64,000 nucleotides of DNA from an uncultured Bacteroidales bacterium (GTDB lineage: Bacteria; Bacteroidota; Bacteroidia; Bacteroidales; UBA10428): positions 5,156 to 69,155 of the forward strand of contig CAZHQW010000008.1 of assembly GCA_964534745.1 (NCBI GenBank). The letters are read 5' to 3'. How positions within the stretch are numbered: position 1 is the first letter of the stretch; every line of letters begins with the position of its first letter. Position numbers and translations under genes: made by a program. Below, one piece after another: positions 44,887 to 60,088 of the stretch. Below the pieces are notes generated by a model. The model was not told the DNA's origin. It was given only the letters and a program-made list of their open reading frames with translations, and did no database searches.

Positions 44887-45005
44887 CCTTAATTCTGGCT
44901 ATTTTAGTACTTTTATACTACCGCGATTGGATTATAATAAATTGTTGCGGAATTAATATACGCAGACAAATAAGTTGGTTTTAGAGTAAAATTTGAGGTT
45001 AATTT

Positions 45006-45050
45006 AAAAGAGGCTGCTATCAATTAGATGCAGCCTCTTTTATTATTTAA
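45006..45050 (+). terminator. strong intrinsic-terminator-like hairpin with no annotated gene upstream (orphan)
   Basis: A perfect 12-bp stem, aaaagaggctgc (45006-45017) / gcagcctctttt (45030-45041), has a 12-nt loop and is followed by attattt. It lies between divergent genes (44778 minus, 45152 plus), about 100 nt upstream of the 45152 start. Confidence 0.6.
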
Positions 45051-45151
45051 TCTGAGTTTTTGTAAAGTTAATCGTTAAGCATTAAGATAATTAGAATTAT
45101 TTTTCGTATTTTTAAATAACCAACTATTAATCACATAATTAATCTTAAATC

Positions 45152-45685
45152 ATGAAACTACAACATCTTTTGCCAGTACTGCTTATTGTAGCAGTGTTAT
45201 CTTGCGAAAAAGAGGAGAATAAATCTCCTGCTTATGTTGGCACCTGGGTCAGGACAGAAGCCGACACCTTATCATTTGTTCCATTAGTCCTGCTTGAAAA
45301 CAAAATGGTAATGACCCTGCAAGTCGGTTCATGGGAAATGATCTCAAAGATAAAGGTTACAGGTTATATACCAGATTGGGAAGATTTTATGGGATTTAAG
45401 GGTACCCTCACCGTAAGCGGTGAAGATGCCACTATAACTTTTGCGGAGATTGGCGTAAGGAATCTTAATATGCAGACAATGACCTTTATTGATGATGAGA
45501 TTACCTGGTATAATGCCAATGATAATCCCAACGAGTACGGATTATATCTTGATGAATATGGTCCGGGAACAACAACACAGGAAGTAAAGTTTATTGTCAG
45601 TGGCAATACTTTGACCATTAAAGCGGATGATAATGGAAACGGCACTTATGAGGAAGACGAAATAATGGTTCTCACTAGGGAATAA
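45152..45685 (+). CDS. lipoprotein, lipocalin-like (YVGTW-type) domain, unknown function
   Basis: 177 aa with a lipobox (LLIVAVLSCEKE). The motif PAYVGTWVR is typical of Bacteroidota lipocalin-like lipoproteins. Confidence 0.5.
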   Translation: MKLQHLLPVLLIVAVLSCEKEENKSPAYVGTWVRTEADTLSFVPLVLLENKMVMTLQVGSWEMISKIKVTGYIPDWEDFMGFKGTLTVSGEDATITFAEIGVRNLNMQTMTFIDDEITWYNANDNPNEYGLYLDEYGPGTTTQEVKFIVSGNTLTIKADDNGNGTYEEDEIMVLTRE

Positions 45686-45699
45686 AAGACAGAATAAAG

Positions 45700-47277
45700 T
45701 CAGTTTGGGTATTCCACCGATTCGATTGAGGGAAATGATTTTCGGAGAATATTTCTGGTATTCAAAAGGCTCAGGAACGCATTTGCCAAAAAATACAGCT
45801 TGTGAGGATGTGAAGATTGTCTTATACAATTGTACAATTCCCTGAAGATTTTTCTTTCCTGCCCTGTGGCTCTTATTAATAAGAACTTTAAAAAGCCTGT
45901 AGTCATAGATATACTTTGTAAGTTTACAGGCATTCGTGATATCCGCAGCCTGCTTTTCTTTTGAGATTGCTCAAAATTATCGAAAAATGTTTTAAACCTG
46001 TAAATAAAGTTCTCAGGTAAATAGAGATTCCTGAATAGCCAGCACAGGCCGTCATAAAATTGTGCGTGTGTCATCTGTTTCGGGACTATAGTAAATGTAT
46101 TCAAAGAATTTACTTTATCAGGATTGGCTCTGGCAGCCTGTTCCCAGTCAATATACCTGCCTTCCTTTATCATTCGTTCCTTAAGTGGTGAGCCGTCAGC
46201 AGCCTGAAGCGGCATAACCTGGATGTTAGGGATACCCGTCTGATTGAAAAAGTCCAACTGCTGGCGAAAGATGGAAATATCATCGCTGTCAAATCCGACG
46301 ATGCACCCTGCATGAACCAGTATTCCATGCTCGTGGATTCTTTTTATGTCCTGCAGCATATTACCGCACAGATTCTGTAATTTTTTTGTTTCTTTAAGGC
46401 TTTTTACATTTGGAGTTTCAATACCTACAGAAAATCTGGTTAATCCCGCTTTAACAGACAGTTCGAGAAATTCTTCATCTCTTGCCGCATCGATAGAGAC
46501 CTGTGCGATAAAGATAACCTGGTGATGCTTCTTCCTGTTCCACTCTCCCAGTGCAGCCAGAATCTCCTTTGCCTTATTTTTATTGCCCGTAAAATTGTCG
46601 TCTGCTATAAGAATGAATCTGAATGATCCTATTCTGAACAGTTGTTCAACTTCCTGAATAATAGTTGAAACAGGCTTATACCTCATTTTATTGCCCATGT
46701 ATCCATGAACGCTGCAAAATTCACATTTGTACGGGCACCCGCGGCTAGCCTGTACAATTCCCCAGAGGTATCTTCTCATCGTACTTGATGCAACTCCGCT
46801 AAAGTCAGGAACCGGACATGCAGACATGTCAATCCTTCCACTTTCATGGTATTCCTTTTTGTAATTTCCGGCTAAATAATCTTTAAGGAACTGTGGCCAT
46901 GTTCTCTCTGCTTCACCTGTTATCAGTACATCCGCAAACGGTCTCCATCGGTCAGGGCTTAAAGTCGCCGGAGAGCCTCCGCAGACAATCAACGAACCAC
47001 GTTTTGAGAACTGCTTTGCTATTTCCCGGGCCCTTTCCAAATAAAAGGAAAAACTACCGATGCCCACGATATCAAAAAATTCGTTAAAATCAACAGGTTC
47101 AGCATCCTCGTCAATGATCCTGACTCTAAAATCTGCCGGAGTTAATGCAGCAAGAGTTGCCAGGCTGACAACAGGAGCTCCGCCCGATCTCCTGGTAATC
47201 AATCTAAGTATATCAGAGATATTGATGAAATTACTTTCAGCGTTTCTTGGTAATACTAGTAGAATTTTTCTTTTCAT
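45700..47277 (-). CDS. B12-binding-domain radical SAM enzyme (class B, with a DUF4070-like C-terminal region)
   Basis: 525 aa. The N-terminal B12-binding-like Rossmann region is KILLVLP..VVSLATLAALTP..RIIDE. The CX3CX2C cluster motif is RGCPYKCEFCSV. A long C-terminal helical extension follows. Confidence 0.8.
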   Translation of the reverse strand: MKRKILLVLPRNAESNFINISDILRLITRRSGGAPVVSLATLAALTPADFRVRIIDEDAEPVDFNEFFDIVGIGSFSFYLERAREIAKQFSKRGSLIVCGGSPATLSPDRWRPFADVLITGEAERTWPQFLKDYLAGNYKKEYHESGRIDMSACPVPDFSGVASSTMRRYLWGIVQASRGCPYKCEFCSVHGYMGNKMRYKPVSTIIQEVEQLFRIGSFRFILIADDNFTGNKNKAKEILAALGEWNRKKHHQVIFIAQVSIDAARDEEFLELSVKAGLTRFSVGIETPNVKSLKETKKLQNLCGNMLQDIKRIHEHGILVHAGCIVGFDSDDISIFRQQLDFFNQTGIPNIQVMPLQAADGSPLKERMIKEGRYIDWEQAARANPDKVNSLNTFTIVPKQMTHAQFYDGLCWLFRNLYLPENFIYRFKTFFDNFEQSQKKSRLRISRMPVNLQSISMTTGFLKFLLIRATGQERKIFRELYNCIRQSSHPHKLYFLANAFLSLLNTRNILRKSFPSIESVEYPN

Positions 47278-47334
47278 ATAATGTTACCTCTATCGATTAA
47301 TCTGATATTCAACCGGTATTTTCAGGCTGCCGGC

Positions 47335-48411
47335 TTAATCATTTCTCCTGGCCAGCTTATTTAAAAGGATTGAAACCAGTCCTCCAAGCATGATATAGCC
47401 AAGTATCACTTCAGCCATAATTATAGACTGTGCAATAAGGCTTGTTAATTTTGGTGTAACAACTCCAGTATCTAAGGTTGTAAAAGTCAATATACTGTGA
47501 TAGAATGCATTATACCAGTGAGCAAGCTGTCCGTTTGCTGTTCTAAAATGAAAAGAATGCTTAAATAATAAAATAATGACCCCAAAGAACAACGTTATTA
47601 ACAAAGACACAATGGCCCACTGCCAAATACTTTTTCCATAATTACATGTTAATCCCCAGATAAGCTTTTTAACTTTTTTAATCCCTTTAGAATTTTGTCG
47701 CTTCCAGTTATACAGCCATGCTTCATCGCGCACTTTTCTGCCAAGCACAGGATCAGTATAACTTATGTTAATTAGCTGTGCCCTGGAAATGGCCTTTATT
47801 ATCGCCCTTTCTGCCTTTTTATTATACCCTTCTTTTATACTTAAGATTATATTTCTGATTAATGCTCCTTTACAATTAAAAGGAACTGATTCCCCTTTCT
47901 TATCTGTAAAAGAAATGTCAATTAACTTCGCATCATTTAAGTAACTGTGTGACAGGTCCGCATTATACATGTTAGTGTCCTTGAGGAAAGCATGTTCAAG
48001 ATAGGCACCCTCGAGATATGCATTCTTGAGTTGAGTTCTCTCCAGCCGGGCATTCTCCATATGAGCACCCATTAAGTTGGCCTTTTCCATATGAGCTTCC
48101 ATCATATCTGCATTTTCGAGATGAGCAATAGTAAGTATAGCATTCTCCAGATGTGCCCTTGATAGGTCAGCACATTCAAAGTAAGCTCCCATAAGGTCGG
48201 CATCCGACAGGTAAGCTCCTGACAGGTCAGCGCATTCAAGGTGAGCACCTGATAAATCGGCTTTTTTAAGTCTTGCTTCCCGCAATTGCAATTTAAAGTT
48301 GCTGTTAATTGCCCTTTGCTCACAATGCCATTTATTCCATTCTTCAATATTATTTTCTTTAGAACACTTGATTAAAAAGTCGTAATGTTCTTTATTAAGT
48401 TTAGTTCTCAT
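47335..48411 (-). CDS. pentapeptide-repeat protein fused to a 2-TM potassium-channel-like pore domain with a degenerate selectivity filter
   Basis: 358 aa with about 24 pentapeptide units (ADLSGAHLECADLSGAYLSDADLMGAYFECADLSRAHLENA...). The C-terminal part has TM1 (WAIVSLLITLFFGVIILLF), a pore-helix/filter-like stretch (WYNAFYHSILTFTTLDTGVVTP, versus canonical T-x-T-T-V-G-Y-G-D) and TM2 (LIAQSIIMAEVILGYIMLGGLVSILL). Confidence 0.75.
   Translation of the reverse strand: MRTKLNKEHYDFLIKCSKENNIEEWNKWHCEQRAINSNFKLQLREARLKKADLSGAHLECADLSGAYLSDADLMGAYFECADLSRAHLENAILTIAHLENADMMEAHMEKANLMGAHMENARLERTQLKNAYLEGAYLEHAFLKDTNMYNADLSHSYLNDAKLIDISFTDKKGESVPFNCKGALIRNIILSIKEGYNKKAERAIIKAISRAQLINISYTDPVLGRKVRDEAWLYNWKRQNSKGIKKVKKLIWGLTCNYGKSIWQWAIVSLLITLFFGVIILLFKHSFHFRTANGQLAHWYNAFYHSILTFTTLDTGVVTPKLTSLIAQSIIMAEVILGYIMLGGLVSILLNKLARRND
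47917..48273 (-). repeat. intragenic tandem 15-nt-period repeats encoding the pentapeptide units
   Basis: Recurrent DNA words such as gcattctccatatgagc / gcattctccagatgtgc / cattttcgagatgagc occur across this span, in register with the A(D/N)LxG/A repeat of the protein. Confidence 0.7.
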
Positions 48412-48829
48412 AGTATTTTATTATTACACAGGGCAGATAACAGATAATTGTCAAATGCTGAAATAAAAATAAATTATGGTCCGCCTTTATCAAAACGGAA
48501 ATTTGCAACGGGTTTGAAAAGATCTACGTAATATGCAAATCAGCAGTATTTTTTTACTGCTCAGAAGCACTTTTAGTAATTTTTACTACAGAAACCGGGT
48601 CAATTTCTTTCTTTTAATAAAATTAAAGGTCCGTATTATTGAATTATGCAATAATATTATTACCTGTGTTAATTATATTGACCGGTAAGGCTATTAAGGT
48701 AATACCGGCGTTGAAATACTTCATTTTGTTTGCTATAAAGCAAATAAATCCATAACTTGTCATTTTCGGATATATAAATATCAGTTTATCGCAACAAAAA
48801 TTGAATTTTTAAACCTAAACCCTTACATT

Positions 48830-49393
48830 ATGAAAACAAACCTCTTTGTTCTTTTAATTCTGGCTGTTTTAGCAGCAACTGCCTGCCAGGAGCAGATAGA
48901 TGTTGACAAGGAAAAGGAAGCTATTATAGCCGTTGTTAACGCAGAATCCAACGCATACCTGGCAAGGGATTTTGAAACTCTGTCCTCTTACATGGTACAG
49001 GATTCATTGCATATACAGTTATATGCAAGTAAGTGGAATTTTGAATATGTAGTTGGATGGGAAGATGCAGTTGAAGGATATAAAAAAGATTTTGCTAATG
49101 ATTCGGCATGGAATAAAATGAAGAATCCCAGACTCGAAAGGAAGAATTATTATATCAAAGTTTATCCTCAAAGTGCATGGGCGGTTTTCAAGACTATTTA
49201 TAAGTGGGATGAGGACACCATAACACATAAGTGGAAAGTTATTGAAACACGTTTCCTTGAAAAGGTTGACGGTGAATGGAAAATAACCTATGTTAACAAT
49301 GTGTCCAAGACAGGTTATGAAGAGCAAGAAAAGGAGAAAGAAGCAGCCAAAGCAGCAGAACCTAAGGAAGAAAAAGAAGAAAAGGCTGAATAG
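48830..49393 (+). CDS. lipoprotein, NTF2/SnoaL-like (DUF4440-type) fold suspected, with a Lys/Glu-rich tail
   Basis: 187 aa with a lipobox (LAATACQEQ). The block KEAIIAVVNAESNAYLARDFETLSSYM resembles NTF2-like domain starts. The C-terminal low-complexity tail is EEQEKEKEAAKAAEPKEEKEEKAE. Confidence 0.45.
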   Translation: MKTNLFVLLILAVLAATACQEQIDVDKEKEAIIAVVNAESNAYLARDFETLSSYMVQDSLHIQLYASKWNFEYVVGWEDAVEGYKKDFANDSAWNKMKNPRLERKNYYIKVYPQSAWAVFKTIYKWDEDTITHKWKVIETRFLEKVDGEWKITYVNNVSKTGYEEQEKEKEAAKAAEPKEEKEEKAE

Positions 49394-49435
49394 GAGTATG
49401 CCAGACCTACGTTAGCTATCCGAAATGTAAATGAA

Positions 49436-49470
49436 TAAGCCCTCTGGAATATTATACAGGGGGCTTAATT
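49436..49470 (+). terminator. possible terminator hairpin after 48830-49393
   Basis: A 10-bp stem, aagccctctg (49436-49445) / cagggggctt (49456-49465), has one G-U pair and a 10-nt loop. The downstream T-tract is weak (aattgtt). Confidence 0.35.
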
Positions 49471-49538
49471 GTTATAATCCCTGTACAAGTAATTATGCTG
49501 ACCATTATATATATTATTGACATCTTAAAATAAAAATA

Positions 49539-51113
49539 ATGGACAAATTTTTTCTGAAGATCAAACACTGGCAGTTAATACTATTGCCTTTTGTTGTTTC
49601 ACTTATGTATACTCTTTGTACCCAAAATTATTTCGCTTCACCTCCTGCATATATGAGATCTCATATAGCCTTATTTGCTTTAAGCCCGGCAGTGGTATAC
49701 TCATTTTTTATATTATTCTGGTATGGATGGATTTATTCTTTAGGTAAAAGTCTTCATAGGAACCTCCCTCCGACAGTAAAGATGAACCTTAGCGGATTTA
49801 AGAACAGTATTTATTTAATTTTTATCTGGCTGTTTTGTTTATGCATCTTCAATACTCTTATGATGACCAGCCGGTTATCTTCCCGTGAATATTCTGGTAT
49901 AACATTCTTATTTATGTTCTTATTTTTCTTGTTTTCGATTTTAGCAGTAATCCTTACTTTCAGATGCAGGTATGTTGTAACCAGGGCACTTAGAGCTGCA
50001 GAAAAACAAGAGCCTGTAAAATTTAACCAGTTTGCATTAGACTTTTTCCTGATGATTTTATTTTTACCTTTCGGCATATTAAAAGTTCAACCAAGGATAA
50101 ACAGACTGTTTAAGGAGGAATTGGATGCGGGTAAGAAAATACATGAAACAAATCCGCTAATTAAATGGAGTTTGAGTCTTATTTTTATATTGTCCGGACT
50201 GGCTATCTTGGTTTTATATTTCCACAATCGCAATTTCTTACTTTCAGGTATACCTTTAATTCTTGCAGGGATTATGCTGCTTCCCCCGATTGGCAATATG
50301 ATTCAGAACAAATTTGGCATAGACAAGAGAAGACATATCAGTTATACTTCAGTAATACTATTATGCTTATGTTCAATGCTGTTTTTTAATATTCCTCATA
50401 CTATTGACAGAGAGAGCAGGAAGGCAAAAAAGATTGTCTATTACAACAGCAATGAGCAACCTCTAAATAAGAAAGAGACCAGGCTTATAAAAAAAGCTAT
50501 TCATCACGATAAGATAAATGTAAGCCTCAAGGCACTTGATAAAATAACTGATCAAAATATGCTTCTTAATATTGCGGTGCTTTCCAGACATATTGATGTC
50601 CGCCATCAAGCACTTAGAAGATTAACAAGTCAGTATTTTCTTACAGAAATTCTTAAAAGGAAAAATTATATGGAAATTCATTATGCAGCACTTAAAAGAA
50701 TAACTGACCCGGCTTGTCTTGCTGTTGTTGTAAAAGACTGTGGCAATAGCCATATTCGTATTGAAGCCCTTAAAAGAATAACAGACCAGGATATTATTGC
50801 TTATGTTGCCAAAAAAGATCCGAATTCTAAAGTCCGTATTGAAGCTATAAAAATATTAACAGGAAGAAGTGTCATTGCTGACGTTGCCAGTAACGATCCT
50901 GAATATGATATTCGGCAGTTCGCATATAAAAAACTGGGATTGGAAAACAGCCAGGACGCATTATATGATGTTTTCATGAATGATACAATCGGATGGGTCC
51001 GTAGTGATGCATTTGATAAACTGACAGACCGTAAAATATTAAATGAAATTGCAGCAAATAATGGCTTCTATGGAAGAAAGGCAAAAGTGAAGCTAAGGAA
51101 GCTATATAGATAA
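49539..51113 (+). CDS. polytopic membrane protein with a C-terminal array of ~7 HEAT/PBS-lyase-like 26-aa repeats
   Basis: 524 aa. The N-terminal ~300 aa carry about 8 hydrophobic helices. The C-terminal repeats are ALDKITDQNMLLNIAV..VRH / AALKRITDPACLAVVVKDCGNSHIRI / EALKRITDQDIIAYVAKKDPNSKVRI / EAIKILTGRSVIADVASNDPEYDIRQ / DAFDKLTDRKILNEIA. Confidence 0.6.
   Translation: MDKFFLKIKHWQLILLPFVVSLMYTLCTQNYFASPPAYMRSHIALFALSPAVVYSFFILFWYGWIYSLGKSLHRNLPPTVKMNLSGFKNSIYLIFIWLFCLCIFNTLMMTSRLSSREYSGITFLFMFLFFLFSILAVILTFRCRYVVTRALRAAEKQEPVKFNQFALDFFLMILFLPFGILKVQPRINRLFKEELDAGKKIHETNPLIKWSLSLIFILSGLAILVLYFHNRNFLLSGIPLILAGIMLLPPIGNMIQNKFGIDKRRHISYTSVILLCLCSMLFFNIPHTIDRESRKAKKIVYYNSNEQPLNKKETRLIKKAIHHDKINVSLKALDKITDQNMLLNIAVLSRHIDVRHQALRRLTSQYFLTEILKRKNYMEIHYAALKRITDPACLAVVVKDCGNSHIRIEALKRITDQDIIAYVAKKDPNSKVRIEAIKILTGRSVIADVASNDPEYDIRQFAYKKLGLENSQDALYDVFMNDTIGWVRSDAFDKLTDRKILNEIAANNGFYGRKAKVKLRKLYR
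50526..51090 (+). repeat. intragenic 78-nt-period tandem repeats (26-aa units)
   Basis: For example, cttaaaagaataactgacc begins at 50691 and cttaaaagaataacagacc begins at 50769, exactly 78 nt apart. Diverged copies lie on either side. Confidence 0.6.
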
Positions 51114-58924: not shown

Positions 58925-60088
58925 TTATTTCCACACGCCCGGTATATTTTCACCGCAAAACTTGCACTTATTGTTAACAATATTATTAGTCATTATATTA
59001 TAACCCCTCCTGTCTATCAGTAGTTTTTTGCATGAGGGACAATAAGTATTTTCAGCGTTCGTGCCGGGCACATTTCCAATATAGACAAATTTAATGCCTG
59101 CCTTGAGGGCGATTTCCCTCGCCTTTTGAAGGGTTGCGACAGGTGTTGAAGGCAACTGTGTTAATTTATACTGGGGATGAAACCTGCTAAAATGAAGCGG
59201 GTAATTGTATAATTTATTCTGGTAGAGCCAGTCACACATTTCCTTTATCATGTCAAAATCGTCTGTCCAGCTCGGCACTATAAGGTTTGTAATCTCAAGC
59301 CAAACACCTTCTTCACTGAGGATCTTAAGCGTATTCAGAACCGGCTGTAGGGTTCCACCGTTTAGCTTTAGGTATATGCTGTCACTGAATGACTTCAGGT
59401 CCACGTTTGCAGCATCAATGACCTTTGCAAGCTCGCGCAAAGGCTTCTCATTTATATATCCTGCCGTAACAAGCACATTTTTTATGCCTTTTTCGTGTGC
59501 CAGCTTTGATGTATCATAAGTATATTCATAGAAAGTTATAGGCTCTGAATATGTATATGCTATGGATTTGCAGCTGCTTTTATATGCCTTGTCAACAACG
59601 GCTCCTGGCATAAGGTCATAGTTACTCGTCTTGCGCGGGGAAGTCTGCGAGATCGTCCAGTTCTGACAGTTAAGGCATGCAAGGTTACAGCCGGCAGTCG
59701 CTATCGAATACGAAGTGCTTGAAGGCAGAAAGTGAAAGAGCGGCTTCTTCTCAATGGGATCAATATGAACAGCACATGGATTGCCATAGGCAATGGTATA
59801 GAGCTTTCCGCCCTCGTTAATTCTATTGTTGCAGGTACTTAGTTCACCTTCCTTCAGAGTACACTCATTCGGACATATCAGGCACTTAACTCCCCGTGCT
59901 GTCTGGATATAATGTGAAGCTTCCTTGCTCCATTTCCATAGATCCTCCCCTGCAGCGGCACCTTCTGAAATTACACCTGTTCCGTTTGCAAGCAGCTTAT
60001 TTCTGAAGCTAAGGCATATCCCGGTTACTCCCAGTAATCCTGTCTTTATAAACTGTCGTTTATTAATCCTGTTATCCTTAATATCCAT
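58925..60088 (-). CDS. AmmeMemoRadiSam-system-type radical SAM enzyme (PFL-activase-like) with an N-terminal Tat-like leader
   Basis: 387 aa. Motifs present are WKWSKEASHY, VKCLICPNECTLKEGELSTCNNRIN, HIDPIEKKPLFHFLP and the CX3CX2C motif GCNLACLNCQNW. There is a C-terminal Cys pair, CPSCKK...CKFCG. The N-terminus is MDIKDNRINKRQFIKTGLLGVTGICLSF. Confidence 0.7.
   Translation of the reverse strand: MDIKDNRINKRQFIKTGLLGVTGICLSFRNKLLANGTGVISEGAAAGEDLWKWSKEASHYIQTARGVKCLICPNECTLKEGELSTCNNRINEGGKLYTIAYGNPCAVHIDPIEKKPLFHFLPSSTSYSIATAGCNLACLNCQNWTISQTSPRKTSNYDLMPGAVVDKAYKSSCKSIAYTYSEPITFYEYTYDTSKLAHEKGIKNVLVTAGYINEKPLRELAKVIDAANVDLKSFSDSIYLKLNGGTLQPVLNTLKILSEEGVWLEITNLIVPSWTDDFDMIKEMCDWLYQNKLYNYPLHFSRFHPQYKLTQLPSTPVATLQKAREIALKAGIKFVYIGNVPGTNAENTYCPSCKKLLIDRRGYNIMTNNIVNNKCKFCGENIPGVWK

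What the first reader, a model, noticed from the sequence alone, without database searches (positions are those of the whole stretch)
45700..48411. Two-gene unit: pentapeptide-repeat protein fused to a K-channel-like pore with a broken selectivity filter, followed by a B12-dependent radical SAM enzyme
The genes are co-directional with a 57-nt gap and are isolated from their neighbours: a long divergent region lies upstream and a convergent gene downstream.

Gene 1 joins about 24 cytoplasmic pentapeptide repeats to a 2-TM pore. There the canonical TVGYGD filter reads TLDTGV (FTTLDTGVVTP). It is therefore unlikely to be a selective K+ channel and may be a sensor or a non-selective pore.

Gene 2 is a class B (cobalamin) radical SAM enzyme with a DUF4070-like tail. 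That class usually methylates unactivated carbons in lipids, cofactors or peptides.

I know of no described functional link between these two families. If the pairing is conserved, it would define an uncharacterised system, for example a membrane-associated modification system or a stress or defence module. I see no small precursor-peptide ORF next to the rSAM gene.
Basis: partly seen in the sequence, partly recalled or inferred. Interest (0 to 1): 0.55.

Follow-up and report, generated by a model that had tools for sequence, protein, structure and literature searches.

The report
Lineage-restricted channel plus radical-SAM gene pair
A pentapeptide-repeat potassium-channel-like gene with a spoiled selectivity filter sits in front of a cobalamin-type radical SAM gene, but the pairing exists in only one small Bacteroidales lineage, where either gene is repeatedly lost alone, so it is a local operon arrangement and not a new two-gene system.

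Summary
Gene 1 (47335-48411, minus strand, 358 aa) has about 25 pentapeptide repeats and a 2-TM K-channel-type pore. Gene 2 (45700-47277, minus strand, 525 aa) is a B12-binding/radical SAM/DUF4070 enzyme, 57 nt downstream. The filter reads TLDTGV, where 66 of 74 relatives have [TS]LG[FY]GD.

The interpretation as a conserved system is only weakly supported.
- **Where the pair occurs.** I found it only in one Bacteroidales clade (rSAM at least 74% identical), in six lineages.
- **Losses inside that clade.** The channel gene was cleanly deleted at least four times, twice leaving its last 30-40 nt. This fuses the same conserved promoter region to the rSAM gene. In one case the rSAM was deleted and the channel kept.
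- **Outside the clade.** None of 71 informative rSAM loci has a channel gene. None of 59 informative channel loci has an rSAM gene.
- **Known families.** No NCBIfam model reaches its cutoff for either protein. PADLOC gives nothing for the channel and a generic 60-bit hit for the rSAM.

Both genes are still under purifying selection (dN/dS 0.10-0.22). Gene 1 has the same domain layout as HalA, the Hailong anti-phage channel effector, but no HalB-like partner is present. My verdict is an ordinary lineage-specific bicistron of two uncharacterised proteins, of modest interest.

The parts
47335..48411 (-). Gene 1: 358-aa pentapeptide-repeat protein fused to a 2-TM K-channel-type pore. Its layout resembles HalA.
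   Evidence: ORF. Pfam Pentapeptide E 3e-30 and Ion_trans_2 21.8 bits. AlphaFold pLDDT 92.5. Foldseek finds 9nyi_A (HalA) aligned over 305 columns, E 1e-4.
47908..48297 (-). Pentapeptide-repeat beta-helix, residues about 39-168 (roughly 25 repeats), predicted cytoplasmic.
   Evidence: The DSSP strand pattern repeats every 5 residues. PDB profile hits to pentapeptide repeat (Rfr-type) proteins such as NP275-NP276 and HetL at E 1e-35 or better.
47338..47637 (-). Pore module, residues about 259-358: TM1, pore helix, filter, TM2 and the conserved NKLARRND tail.
   Evidence: Profile A4 hits K+ channels at E 4e-12 to 2e-7. The fold matches KirBac, Kir, KcsA and NaK.
47461..47481 (-). Degenerate selectivity filter TTLDTGV (residues 311-317). 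The family consensus is TTLGFGD.
   Evidence: Alignments A2 and A3. 66 of 74 relatives are canonical and the window's version is unique.
47278..47334 (-). 57-nt intergenic gap. No terminator-like site and no evident Bacteroidetes-type promoter.
   Evidence: Sequence. Terminator scan. Search for TAnnTTTG.
45700..47277 (-). Gene 2: 525-aa B12-binding/radical SAM/DUF4070 enzyme of unnamed subfamily.
   Evidence: Pfam. No NCBIfam model reaches its cutoff; the best is BchE at 79 bits against 481. 1421 homologues, many at 45-65% identity in other phyla.
46714..46737 (-). CxxxCxxC motif for the radical SAM [4Fe-4S] cluster (C181, C185, C188).
   Evidence: These columns are invariant in the 25-sequence alignment A1.
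48440..48660 (-). Conserved 5' regulatory region. Invariant GTTTTGATA (48488-48496) and TA.TTTTATTT (48461-48471) lie 19 nt apart, like Bacteroidetes -33/-7 boxes. A palindrome ATTTGCATATT.TGCAAAT lies upstream of them.
   Evidence: Alignment A6 of the window, L004, L005, L165, L168 and L169. The same region lies directly upstream of the rSAM gene where the channel gene is deleted. Reading it as a promoter is inference from the published Bacteroides consensus, recalled from memory.

Best explanation
This is a lineage-restricted bicistronic arrangement, not a dedicated two-component system.

**How it arose.** The B12-type radical SAM gene is an old gene that stands alone and has relatives in many phyla. 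In the ancestor of one Bacteroidales clade, a pentapeptide-repeat/K-channel gene came to lie between that gene and a promoter region. The pair has since been inherited by descent and is probably co-transcribed. This last step is inferred.

**Independence.** The two products do not depend on each other, because either gene is lost alone in close relatives.

**Gene 1.** It most likely forms a tetrameric 2-TM channel with a cytoplasmic beta-helix crown. This is inferred from K-channel homology and the HalA-like layout. In this genome the first filter glycine, the aromatic residue and the final aspartate are replaced (G314D, F315T, D317V). The channel is therefore probably no longer K+-selective. 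It may be non-selective or non-conducting, while the rest of the protein remains under constraint.

**Gene 2.** It carries out a separate radical SAM reaction, probably cobalamin-dependent, on an unknown substrate.
For: **Outside the clade the genes do not co-occur.**
- None of 80 genome loci of rSAM relatives has a channel-domain ORF, and 71 of them have at least 1.2 kb of upstream sequence.
- tblastn with gene 1 finds only one 17-aa remnant, in L005.
- None of 80 metagenome loci of channel relatives has the rSAM, and 59 have at least 700 nt downstream.
- Among 112 immediate neighbours of those channel genes, no Radical_SAM or B12-binding family appears in the 25 most frequent Pfam families that the tool lists. 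Those run from GAF in 14 members down to families found in a single member.

**Inside the clade (rSAM at least 74% identical), the channel gene was deleted repeatedly.**
- L004 (rSAM 94% identical) lacks exactly window 47302-48428. The upstream region is joined directly to the rSAM gene.
- L005 keeps the last roughly 40 nt of the channel ORF, encoding NKLARRND*.
- L172 keeps about 30 nt of it, although L172 is 98.5% identical to the channel-bearing L166.
- L001 shows promoter-region similarity to the region upstream of the L002 channel gene, but has no channel gene.

**The reverse loss also occurred.** L166 keeps the channel gene and only 47 frameshifted codons of the rSAM.

**Phylogeny.** In an NJ tree, paired and unpaired loci are interleaved. 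The sister clade at 61-65% identity lacks the channel gene.

**Shared promoter.** The 5' region is conserved in front of whichever gene comes first.

**Context.** The rSAM gene's neighbours vary and are unrelated in other Bacteroidales.
Against: - The adjacency, orientation and short gap (57-100 nt) persist in six lineages (window, L002/L003, L165, L168, L169, L171). This holds across rSAM dS of 0.16 to about 1.3 and despite different flanking genes. That is more persistence than for neighbouring genes and could reflect selection for co-expression.
- Both genes are under purifying selection where present: dN/dS is 0.13-0.22 for the channel and 0.10-0.15 for the rSAM.
- In the one case where the rSAM was lost and the channel kept (L166), the channel has an altered filter (LGFGV) and fewer repeats. 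A model in which the rSAM restrains the channel would also predict this.
- Co-transcription was not measured.
Confidence: 0.65

Rival explanations
1. A genuine functional module, limited to this clade. The two genes are co-expressed because they act together. For example, the rSAM product (a modified lipid or metabolite) might gate or tune the membrane channel, or both might respond to the same stress.
For: The pair is retained in six lineages with changing flanks and one shared conserved promoter region. Both genes are under purifying selection.
Against: - At least four independent clean deletions of the channel gene occurred. In three of them (L004, L005, L001) the rSAM gene was kept intact. 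In the fourth (L172) it is broken by a 91-nt deletion.
- One loss went the other way.
- rSAM orthologues at 45-65% identity occur widely without any channel gene.
- Channel relatives never have an rSAM neighbour.
Confidence: 0.15
2. A Hailong-like abortive-infection module. Gene 1 would be a HalA-type channel effector held closed by a ligand, with the radical SAM enzyme replacing the HalB nucleotidyltransferase as the maker of that ligand.
For: - Foldseek aligns the full-length model with HalA (9nyi_A) over 305 columns, E 1e-4.
- A 2026 paper describes the channel protein of a P4-borne two-gene system, which its authors equate with Hailong, as pentapeptide repeats plus an IRK K-channel domain (PMC13586616).
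- The mechanism of Hailong is summarised in PMC13434031.
- The effector gene comes first in a two-gene operon.
- Losing the effector is tolerated. The only locus that lost the rSAM has a filter-altered, shortened channel.
Against: - No nucleotidyltransferase lies nearby.
- The surroundings are polysaccharide-degradation and housekeeping genes, not a defence island or mobile element.
- PADLOC finds nothing for gene 1 and only a generic 60-bit hit (PDC-M51A) for the rSAM. The NAR paper states that PADLOC does not model Hailong.
- Identity to HalA is 9% and TM-scores are 0.27-0.29, so homology is unproven.
- The rSAM is a conserved stand-alone gene in many phyla, unlike a dedicated regulator.
- No nucleotidyltransferase family appears among the most frequent families listed for 112 neighbours of channel relatives.
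Confidence: 0.05
3. Gene 1 in this genome is an early-stage pseudogene: an intact ORF that no longer functions and is awaiting deletion, as has already happened in relatives.
For: - The filter is non-canonical in 3 of 7 clade members against 6 of 69 outside it (Fisher p = 0.03).
- The repeat region is shortened in P0004 and P0005.
- At least four deletions of the gene occurred in the clade.
Against: - The ORF is intact.
- All other nearly invariant family positions are kept in the window protein.
- dN/dS is 0.13-0.17 against the orthologues, and the window lineage shows no excess of dN relative to the rSAM gene.
- These pairwise values average over long branches and cannot detect recent relaxation.
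Confidence: 0.1

Closest known systems
HalA, the ion-channel effector of the Hailong anti-phage system (PDB 9nyi; Tan et al. 2025, as summarised in PMC13434031 and PMC13586616)
   Same: In the full-length Foldseek results shown (top 50), it is the only chain aligned to most of its own length outside the plain pentapeptide beta-helix proteins (305 columns of a 333-residue chain). The P4-borne channel protein that PMC13586616 equates with HalA is described as pentapeptide repeats plus an IRK-type K-channel domain. HalA is a tetrameric membrane channel with a cytoplasmic crown and is encoded in a two-gene operon.
   Different: Identity is 9% and TM-scores are 0.27-0.29, so common ancestry is not shown. 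The partner here is a radical SAM enzyme, not the HalB nucleotidyltransferase. The locus is not in a defence or mobile-element context. HalA did not appear among the top 50 fold hits of the pore region alone.
Prokaryotic 2-TM K+ channels (KirBac, KcsA, NaK; Pfam Ion_trans_2)
   Same: TM1, pore helix, filter and TM2 in the same order. Profile E-values are 4e-12 to 2e-7 and the fold matches. Relatives carry the K+ signature TLG[FY]GD.
   Different: The window protein has TLDTGV in place of that signature. The N-terminal regulatory domain is a pentapeptide beta-helix instead of an RCK, CNBD or Kir cytoplasmic domain.
Pentapeptide repeat proteins (Rfr fold: MfpA, Qnr, HetL, NP275/276)
   Same: A right-handed quadrilateral beta-helix of about 25 repeats. 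Pfam E 3e-30 and PDB profile E about 1e-42 to 1e-35.
   Different: Those proteins are soluble and stand alone. Here the helix is fused to a membrane pore. No NCBIfam equivalog cutoff is reached.
Class B (cobalamin-dependent) radical SAM enzymes: BchE, HpnJ, HpnR, PhpK, the MCR glutamine C-methyltransferase; the solved structures that match by sequence are AprD4, CysS, TokK and TsrM
   Same: N-terminal Rossmann-type B12-like domain, CxxxCxxC core and DUF4070 tail. Weak homology to all of these enzymes.
   Different: Every named NCBIfam model scores far below its cutoff (best 79 bits against 481). The substrate and reaction are unknown, and there are no conserved pathway neighbours.

Membership tests
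Pentapeptide repeat family (PF00805, Rfr fold) | Tandem A(D/N)LXX pentapeptides forming a quadrilateral beta-helix | tested here: met
   Pfam 103.7 bits against a 20.2-bit cutoff. The AlphaFold model has a strand every 5 residues over residues 41-165. Top Foldseek hits are Rfr proteins.
K+ channel pore superfamily (Ion_trans_2 / 2-TM type) | TM1, pore helix, filter loop and TM2 in that order | tested here: met
   The window protein alone scores 21.8 bits against a 22.5-bit cutoff. The family profile hits K+ channels at E 4e-12. The fold matches KirBac, Kir, KcsA and NaK with probability 0.97-1.0.
K+ channel pore superfamily (Ion_trans_2 / 2-TM type) | Signature selectivity filter T-X-G-[YF]-G-D | tested here: not met
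   The window has T-L-D-T-G-V. 66 of 74 relatives have the signature.
K+ channel pore superfamily (Ion_trans_2 / 2-TM type) | Tetramer that conducts K+ selectively | not testable with these tools
   Only monomer models were made. Electrophysiology or flux assays are needed.
Class B (cobalamin-dependent) radical SAM | CxxxCxxC motif for the [4Fe-4S] cluster in a Radical_SAM core | tested here: met
   PF04055 at 60.9 bits against a 29.5-bit cutoff. C181, C185 and C188 are invariant.
Class B (cobalamin-dependent) radical SAM | N-terminal cobalamin-binding domain | tested here: inconclusive
   PF02310 at 28.1 bits against a 32.1-bit cutoff, and Radical_SAM_N2 at 23 bits against 29. Most homologues carry precomputed PF02310 hits. 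Cobalamin binding itself is untested.
Class B (cobalamin-dependent) radical SAM | DUF4070 C-terminal domain | tested here: met
   25.1 bits against a 22-bit cutoff.
Named class-B subfamilies (BchE, HpnJ, HpnR, PhpK, ladderane rSAM, MCR glutamine C-methyltransferase, and others) | Score at or above the NCBIfam equivalog cutoff | tested here: not met
   The best is BchE at 79.3 bits against 481. All 27 models that hit score below their cutoffs.
Hailong defence system | HalA-type channel effector | tested here: inconclusive
   Foldseek hit to 9nyi_A: E 1e-4, 305 columns, 9% identity, TM-score 0.27-0.29. No HalA match was seen in the sequence searches, although only the best 60 of 212-342 hits were shown.
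Hailong defence system | Adjacent HalB nucleotidyltransferase | tested here: not met
   The neighbours are an rSAM, a lipoprotein-like gene and a SnoaL-like gene. No nucleotidyltransferase family appears among the 25 most frequent families listed for 112 neighbours of channel relatives.
Known anti-phage systems (PADLOC-DB 2.0) | A hit to a defence-system model, in a defence-island context | tested here: not met
   Gene 1 has no hit. The rSAM has a generic 60-bit hit to candidate PDC-M51A. The surroundings are glycoside hydrolases, an MscS-type channel, and OmpA and TonB-type genes.
RiPP biosynthetic cluster | A small precursor-peptide ORF next to the rSAM gene | tested here: not met
   The 57-nt gap and the 14-nt downstream spacer are too short to hold an ORF. 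The ORFs of 20 aa or more in 48412-48829 look like chance products of AT-rich sequence. Conservation of the individual ORFs was not tested, though the promoter-distal part of that region aligns less well across loci.

The most novel reading that the evidence does not exclude
Gene 1 is a HalA-type guard channel, and in this Bacteroidales clade it has been re-wired to a radical SAM enzyme. The enzyme's product would keep the channel closed, in place of HalB-made oligo-dA. The filter mutations and deletions would then be the usual decay of a costly abortive-infection effector. This would be the first defence-type channel controlled by radical SAM chemistry.
Probability: 0.06. Interest if true: 0.75.

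Novelty: new member of a known kind. Interest (0 to 1): 0.3.

Why it matters
The result mainly prevents a chance-looking operon from being promoted to a "system". The two families are linked in only one shallow clade, and they come apart there repeatedly.

Two by-products are useful:
- Pentapeptide-repeat/K-channel fusions form a large, almost unstudied family. More than a thousand relatives were detected, and most of the best 120 carry both domains. Their layout resembles that of the recently described HalA defence channel. In the loci I sampled they are usually not next to a nucleotidyltransferase, so most members probably do something other than Hailong defence.
- This clade offers natural allelic series: intact filter, altered filter, deleted channel and deleted rSAM, some at 98.5% nucleotide identity. 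These would make clean material for testing what the channel and the orphan B12-type radical SAM enzyme do.

Tried and rejected
- **PADLOC on five proteins.** Nothing for the channel, and a generic rSAM hit only.
- **Rfam at relaxed threshold over 45000-49500.** Only two sub-threshold chance hits. There is no riboswitch in the conserved 5' region.
- **Sigma-70 promoter scan.** The number of hits did not exceed that in shuffled sequence, and the consensus does not apply to Bacteroidetes. No terminator was found in the gap. An exact search for TAnnTTTG found nothing. The promoter call therefore rests on near-consensus invariant boxes in alignment A6.
- **tblastn of gene 1 against phage and plasmid collections.** Only pentapeptide-region hits in phages, for example the P22-like ORF in ST104/S149, which has no pore domain. 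A few full-length relatives, annotated merely as pentapeptide repeat proteins, lie on cyanobacterial and haloarchaeal plasmids; I did not follow these up.
- **Looking for a conserved partner of the rSAM.** My simple ORF caller performs poorly on the high-GC loci. In the low-GC Bacteroidales loci the neighbours are miscellaneous.
- **The GAF-GGDEF gene downstream of 15 distant channel relatives.** It looked like a better conserved partner, but those 15 channels are 71-100% identical to each other, so this is again one clade.
Full report
**1. The observation**

The ORF list gives gene 1 at 47335-48411 and gene 2 at 45700-47277, both on the minus strand, 57 nt apart. Upstream, 418 nt separate gene 1 from a divergent SnoaL-like gene (48830-49393). 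Downstream, a convergent 177-aa gene ends 14 nt from the stop codon of gene 2.

Pfam finds Pentapeptide (E 3e-30) and Ion_trans_2 (21.8 bits, just below the 22.5-bit cutoff) in gene 1. In gene 2 it finds Radical_SAM (E 2e-16), DUF4070 (above cutoff) and B12-binding (28.1 bits, below the 32.1-bit cutoff). No NCBIfam model reaches its cutoff for either protein. The best for the rSAM is BchE at 79 bits against 481.

An AlphaFold model of gene 1, built on 74 homologues, is confident (pLDDT 92.5). It shows a two-helix cap, a beta-helix with one strand per five residues from about residue 41 to 165 (roughly 25 repeats), a helical linker, then TM1, pore helix and TM2. A profile of the pore region hits K2P, Slo2, NaK, Kv and KirBac channels at E 4e-12 to 2e-7. 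A separate model of that region matches KirBac, Kir, KcsA and NaK pores.

The filter reads TLDTGV. Among 74 aligned relatives, 66 have [TS]LG[FY]GD and the window's version is unique. The replaced residues are the first glycine, the aromatic residue and the final aspartate. The other nearly invariant positions of the family are retained. The only corrections are that the family norm is TLGFGD, not TVGYGD, and that two domain hits are sub-threshold on the single sequence.

**2. Is the pairing conserved?**

I approached this from both sides.

- *From the rSAM side.* A scan of one genome per species returned 589 relatives, of which 80 loci were kept. None carries an ORF matching an HMM of the channel's linker-plus-pore region, and 71 of them have at least 1.2 kb upstream of the rSAM gene. 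tblastn with gene 1 at E up to 10 finds only one 17-residue remnant, in L005.
- *From the channel side.* A metagenome scan gave 80 loci of relatives at 28-40% identity. None has the rSAM, and 59 have at least 700 nt downstream. Pfam scanning of 112 immediate neighbours lists no Radical_SAM, B12-binding or nucleotidyltransferase family among the 25 most frequent families, which run from GAF in 14 members to families seen once. The only recurrent partners are GAF(-GGDEF) in 14 and HDOD and rhodanese in 3 each. The GAF cases all belong to one clade of channels 71-100% identical to each other.

The pairing does recur among the closest relatives. These are L002/L003 (P0003 with P0123), L165, L168, L169 and L171. 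In each the channel gene comes first, both genes have the same orientation, and the gap is about 100 nt. The flanking genes differ from locus to locus.

**3. What happened inside that clade**

Nucleotide comparisons and the sequences themselves show repeated, independent single-gene losses.

- *L004.* Its rSAM is 94% identical to the window's. It lacks exactly window 47302-48428, that is, gene 1. The upstream intergenic region is joined to the rSAM gene about 20 nt before its start codon.
- *L005.* Its rSAM is 80% identical. It lacks 47376-48458 but keeps the last roughly 40 nt of the channel ORF (…NKLARRND*), which is a deletion scar.
- *L172.* It is 98.5% identical to the channel-bearing L166 over 6.5 kb. 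It has a different deletion that leaves about 30 nt of the ORF. Its rSAM is broken by a 91-nt deletion that removes the CxxxCxxC region.
- *L001.* Its rSAM is 74% identical. The region upstream of its rSAM gene resembles the region upstream of the L002 channel gene, but there is no channel gene.
- *L006.* It has a rearranged upstream region containing a thrice-repeated ORF.
- *L166.* Here the loss went the other way. The channel gene is kept and is followed by only 47 frameshifted codons of the rSAM. The sequence then jumps to the equivalent of window 44784.

In a neighbour-joining tree of the rSAM proteins, paired and unpaired loci are interleaved throughout the clade at 74% identity or more. 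The sister clade at 61-65% identity (L007-L010) has no channel gene. The simplest history is one acquisition of the channel gene upstream of a pre-existing stand-alone rSAM gene. After that came at least four losses of the channel gene and at least one loss of the rSAM gene. The tree is a simple distance tree. The deletion scars and the L004 and L166/L172 comparisons do not depend on it.

**4. Selection**

Nei-Gojobori estimates between the four full pairs give dN/dS of 0.13-0.22 for the channel gene and 0.10-0.15 for the rSAM gene, with dS from 0.16 to about 1.7. Both genes are therefore constrained where present, the channel somewhat less. The window lineage shows no excess of dN in the channel gene relative to the rSAM gene.

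Filter changes are concentrated in this clade. Three of seven members are non-canonical (window TLDTGV, L168 TSGCGN, L166 LGFGV) against 6 of 69 elsewhere (Fisher p = 0.03). This fits either a local loss of the need for K+ selectivity or early decay. Pairwise dN/dS cannot separate the two.

**5. Regulation**

Alignment of the region upstream of gene 1 (window, L165, L168, L169) with the region upstream of the rSAM gene in the deletion variants (L004, L005) shows invariant GTTTTGATA and TA.TTTTATTT blocks 19 nt apart, about 50-85 nt before the first start codon. It also shows a conserved palindrome, ATTTGCATATT.TGCAAAT. The spacing and sequence resemble the Bacteroides -33 TTTG and -7 TAnnTTTG promoter elements, which I cite from memory. 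The 57-nt gap has no terminator-like hairpin and no such boxes. Co-transcription from one promoter is therefore likely, but it is inferred. No Rfam family matches the region.

**6. Comparison with known systems**

A literature search turned up the Hailong anti-phage system. It has a tetrameric membrane channel (HalA) and a nucleotidyltransferase (HalB). HalB makes oligo-dA, which keeps HalA closed, and phage exonucleases release the block (PMC13434031 and PMC13276650). [quoted passage not shown] It also notes that PADLOC and DefenseFinder do not detect Hailong (PMC13586616).

Foldseek with the full-length model finds HalA (9nyi_A) at E 1e-4, aligned over 305 columns of a 333-residue chain. Identity is 9% and TM-scores are 0.27-0.29. 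HalA did not appear among the hits shown in the sequence searches or in the pore-only fold search.

Gene 1 thus has a layout resembling HalA's, but membership in its family is unproven. The defining partner, HalB, is absent here and does not appear among the neighbours of 80 relatives. The surrounding 30 kb encodes glycoside hydrolases, T9SS cargo, a hybrid sensor, an MscS-type channel, and OmpA and TonB-type proteins. There is no defence island and no mobile element.

The rSAM belongs to no named class-B subfamily. By sequence, the nearest solved structures are AprD4 and an unnamed radical SAM protein (9ccb), at E about 1e-10.

**7. Conclusion**

The pair is real, and within one shallow Bacteroidales lineage it is inherited and probably co-transcribed. 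The two families are otherwise unlinked, and each gene is dispensable without the other. The best reading is therefore a lineage-specific bicistron of two independent, uncharacterised proteins (confidence about 0.65). The channel in this genome is probably not K+-selective.

A clade-limited functional coupling (0.15), a Hailong-like guard re-wired to a radical SAM enzyme (0.05) and incipient pseudogenisation of gene 1 (0.1) remain possible. Interest is modest (0.3). The main value lies in the negative result, in the link to the HalA-type layout, and in the natural deletion series.

Noticed in passing
window 48440-48660 (minus strand): The intergenic region holds a conserved palindrome, ATTTGCATATT.TGCAAAT, plus invariant -33/-7-like boxes. 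All are kept in front of the rSAM gene in relatives that deleted the channel gene. The palindrome looks like an operator for an unknown dimeric regulator.
   Followed up: partly
window 49539-51113 (+): A 524-aa membrane protein with a repeat-rich C-terminal half and no Pfam hit lies here. It is absent from the 94%-related contig L004, where the SnoaL-like gene directly abuts the MscS-type channel gene. This is a second recent indel beside the finding.
   Followed up: partly
L166 9505-10942 versus L172 6464-9689: Two contigs 98.5% identical to each other carry reciprocal states. One has the channel gene plus a 47-codon rSAM remnant. The other has a 30-nt channel remnant plus an rSAM broken by a 91-nt deletion that removes CxxxCxxC. 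These may be population-level alleles or, less likely, assembly artefacts.
   Followed up: yes
L097, L107, L112-L115, L120, L128, L129, L131, L136, L137, L141, L144, L158: Distant channel relatives from marine-sediment metagenomes have a GAF-GGDEF gene 41-170 nt downstream on the same strand. Their channel ORFs appear much longer (up to 857 aa). All belong to one clade at 71-100% identity.
   Followed up: partly
L011 6183-11982: A Candidatus Anammoxibacter contig carries three full-length tandem copies of the B12-type rSAM, plus a short fourth ORF of the same cluster.
   Followed up: no
L008 9701-11170 and L009 2324-3795: In two Bacteroidia MAGs, rSAM relatives at 62-63% identity are followed by an LMW-phosphatase (ArsC-like) gene and an SBF/ACR3-type transporter gene. 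That arrangement looks like an arsenic-resistance locus.
   Followed up: no
window 58925-60088 (-): A second, unrelated 387-aa radical SAM gene lies about 11.6 kb from the finding.
   Followed up: no
L001 9565-9665 and 11581-13800: The 3.5-Mb Bacteroidales record has a run of N just upstream of its rSAM gene. It also has a 2.2-kb stretch with no called gene, where a 664-aa ORF can be read.
   Followed up: no
window 45700-47277 (-), PADLOC hit: The rSAM scores 60 bits (E 4.5e-17) against the candidate defence model PDC-M51A. The score is similar in size to its generic hits on BchE and PhpK, so I treated it as superfamily similarity.
   Followed up: partly
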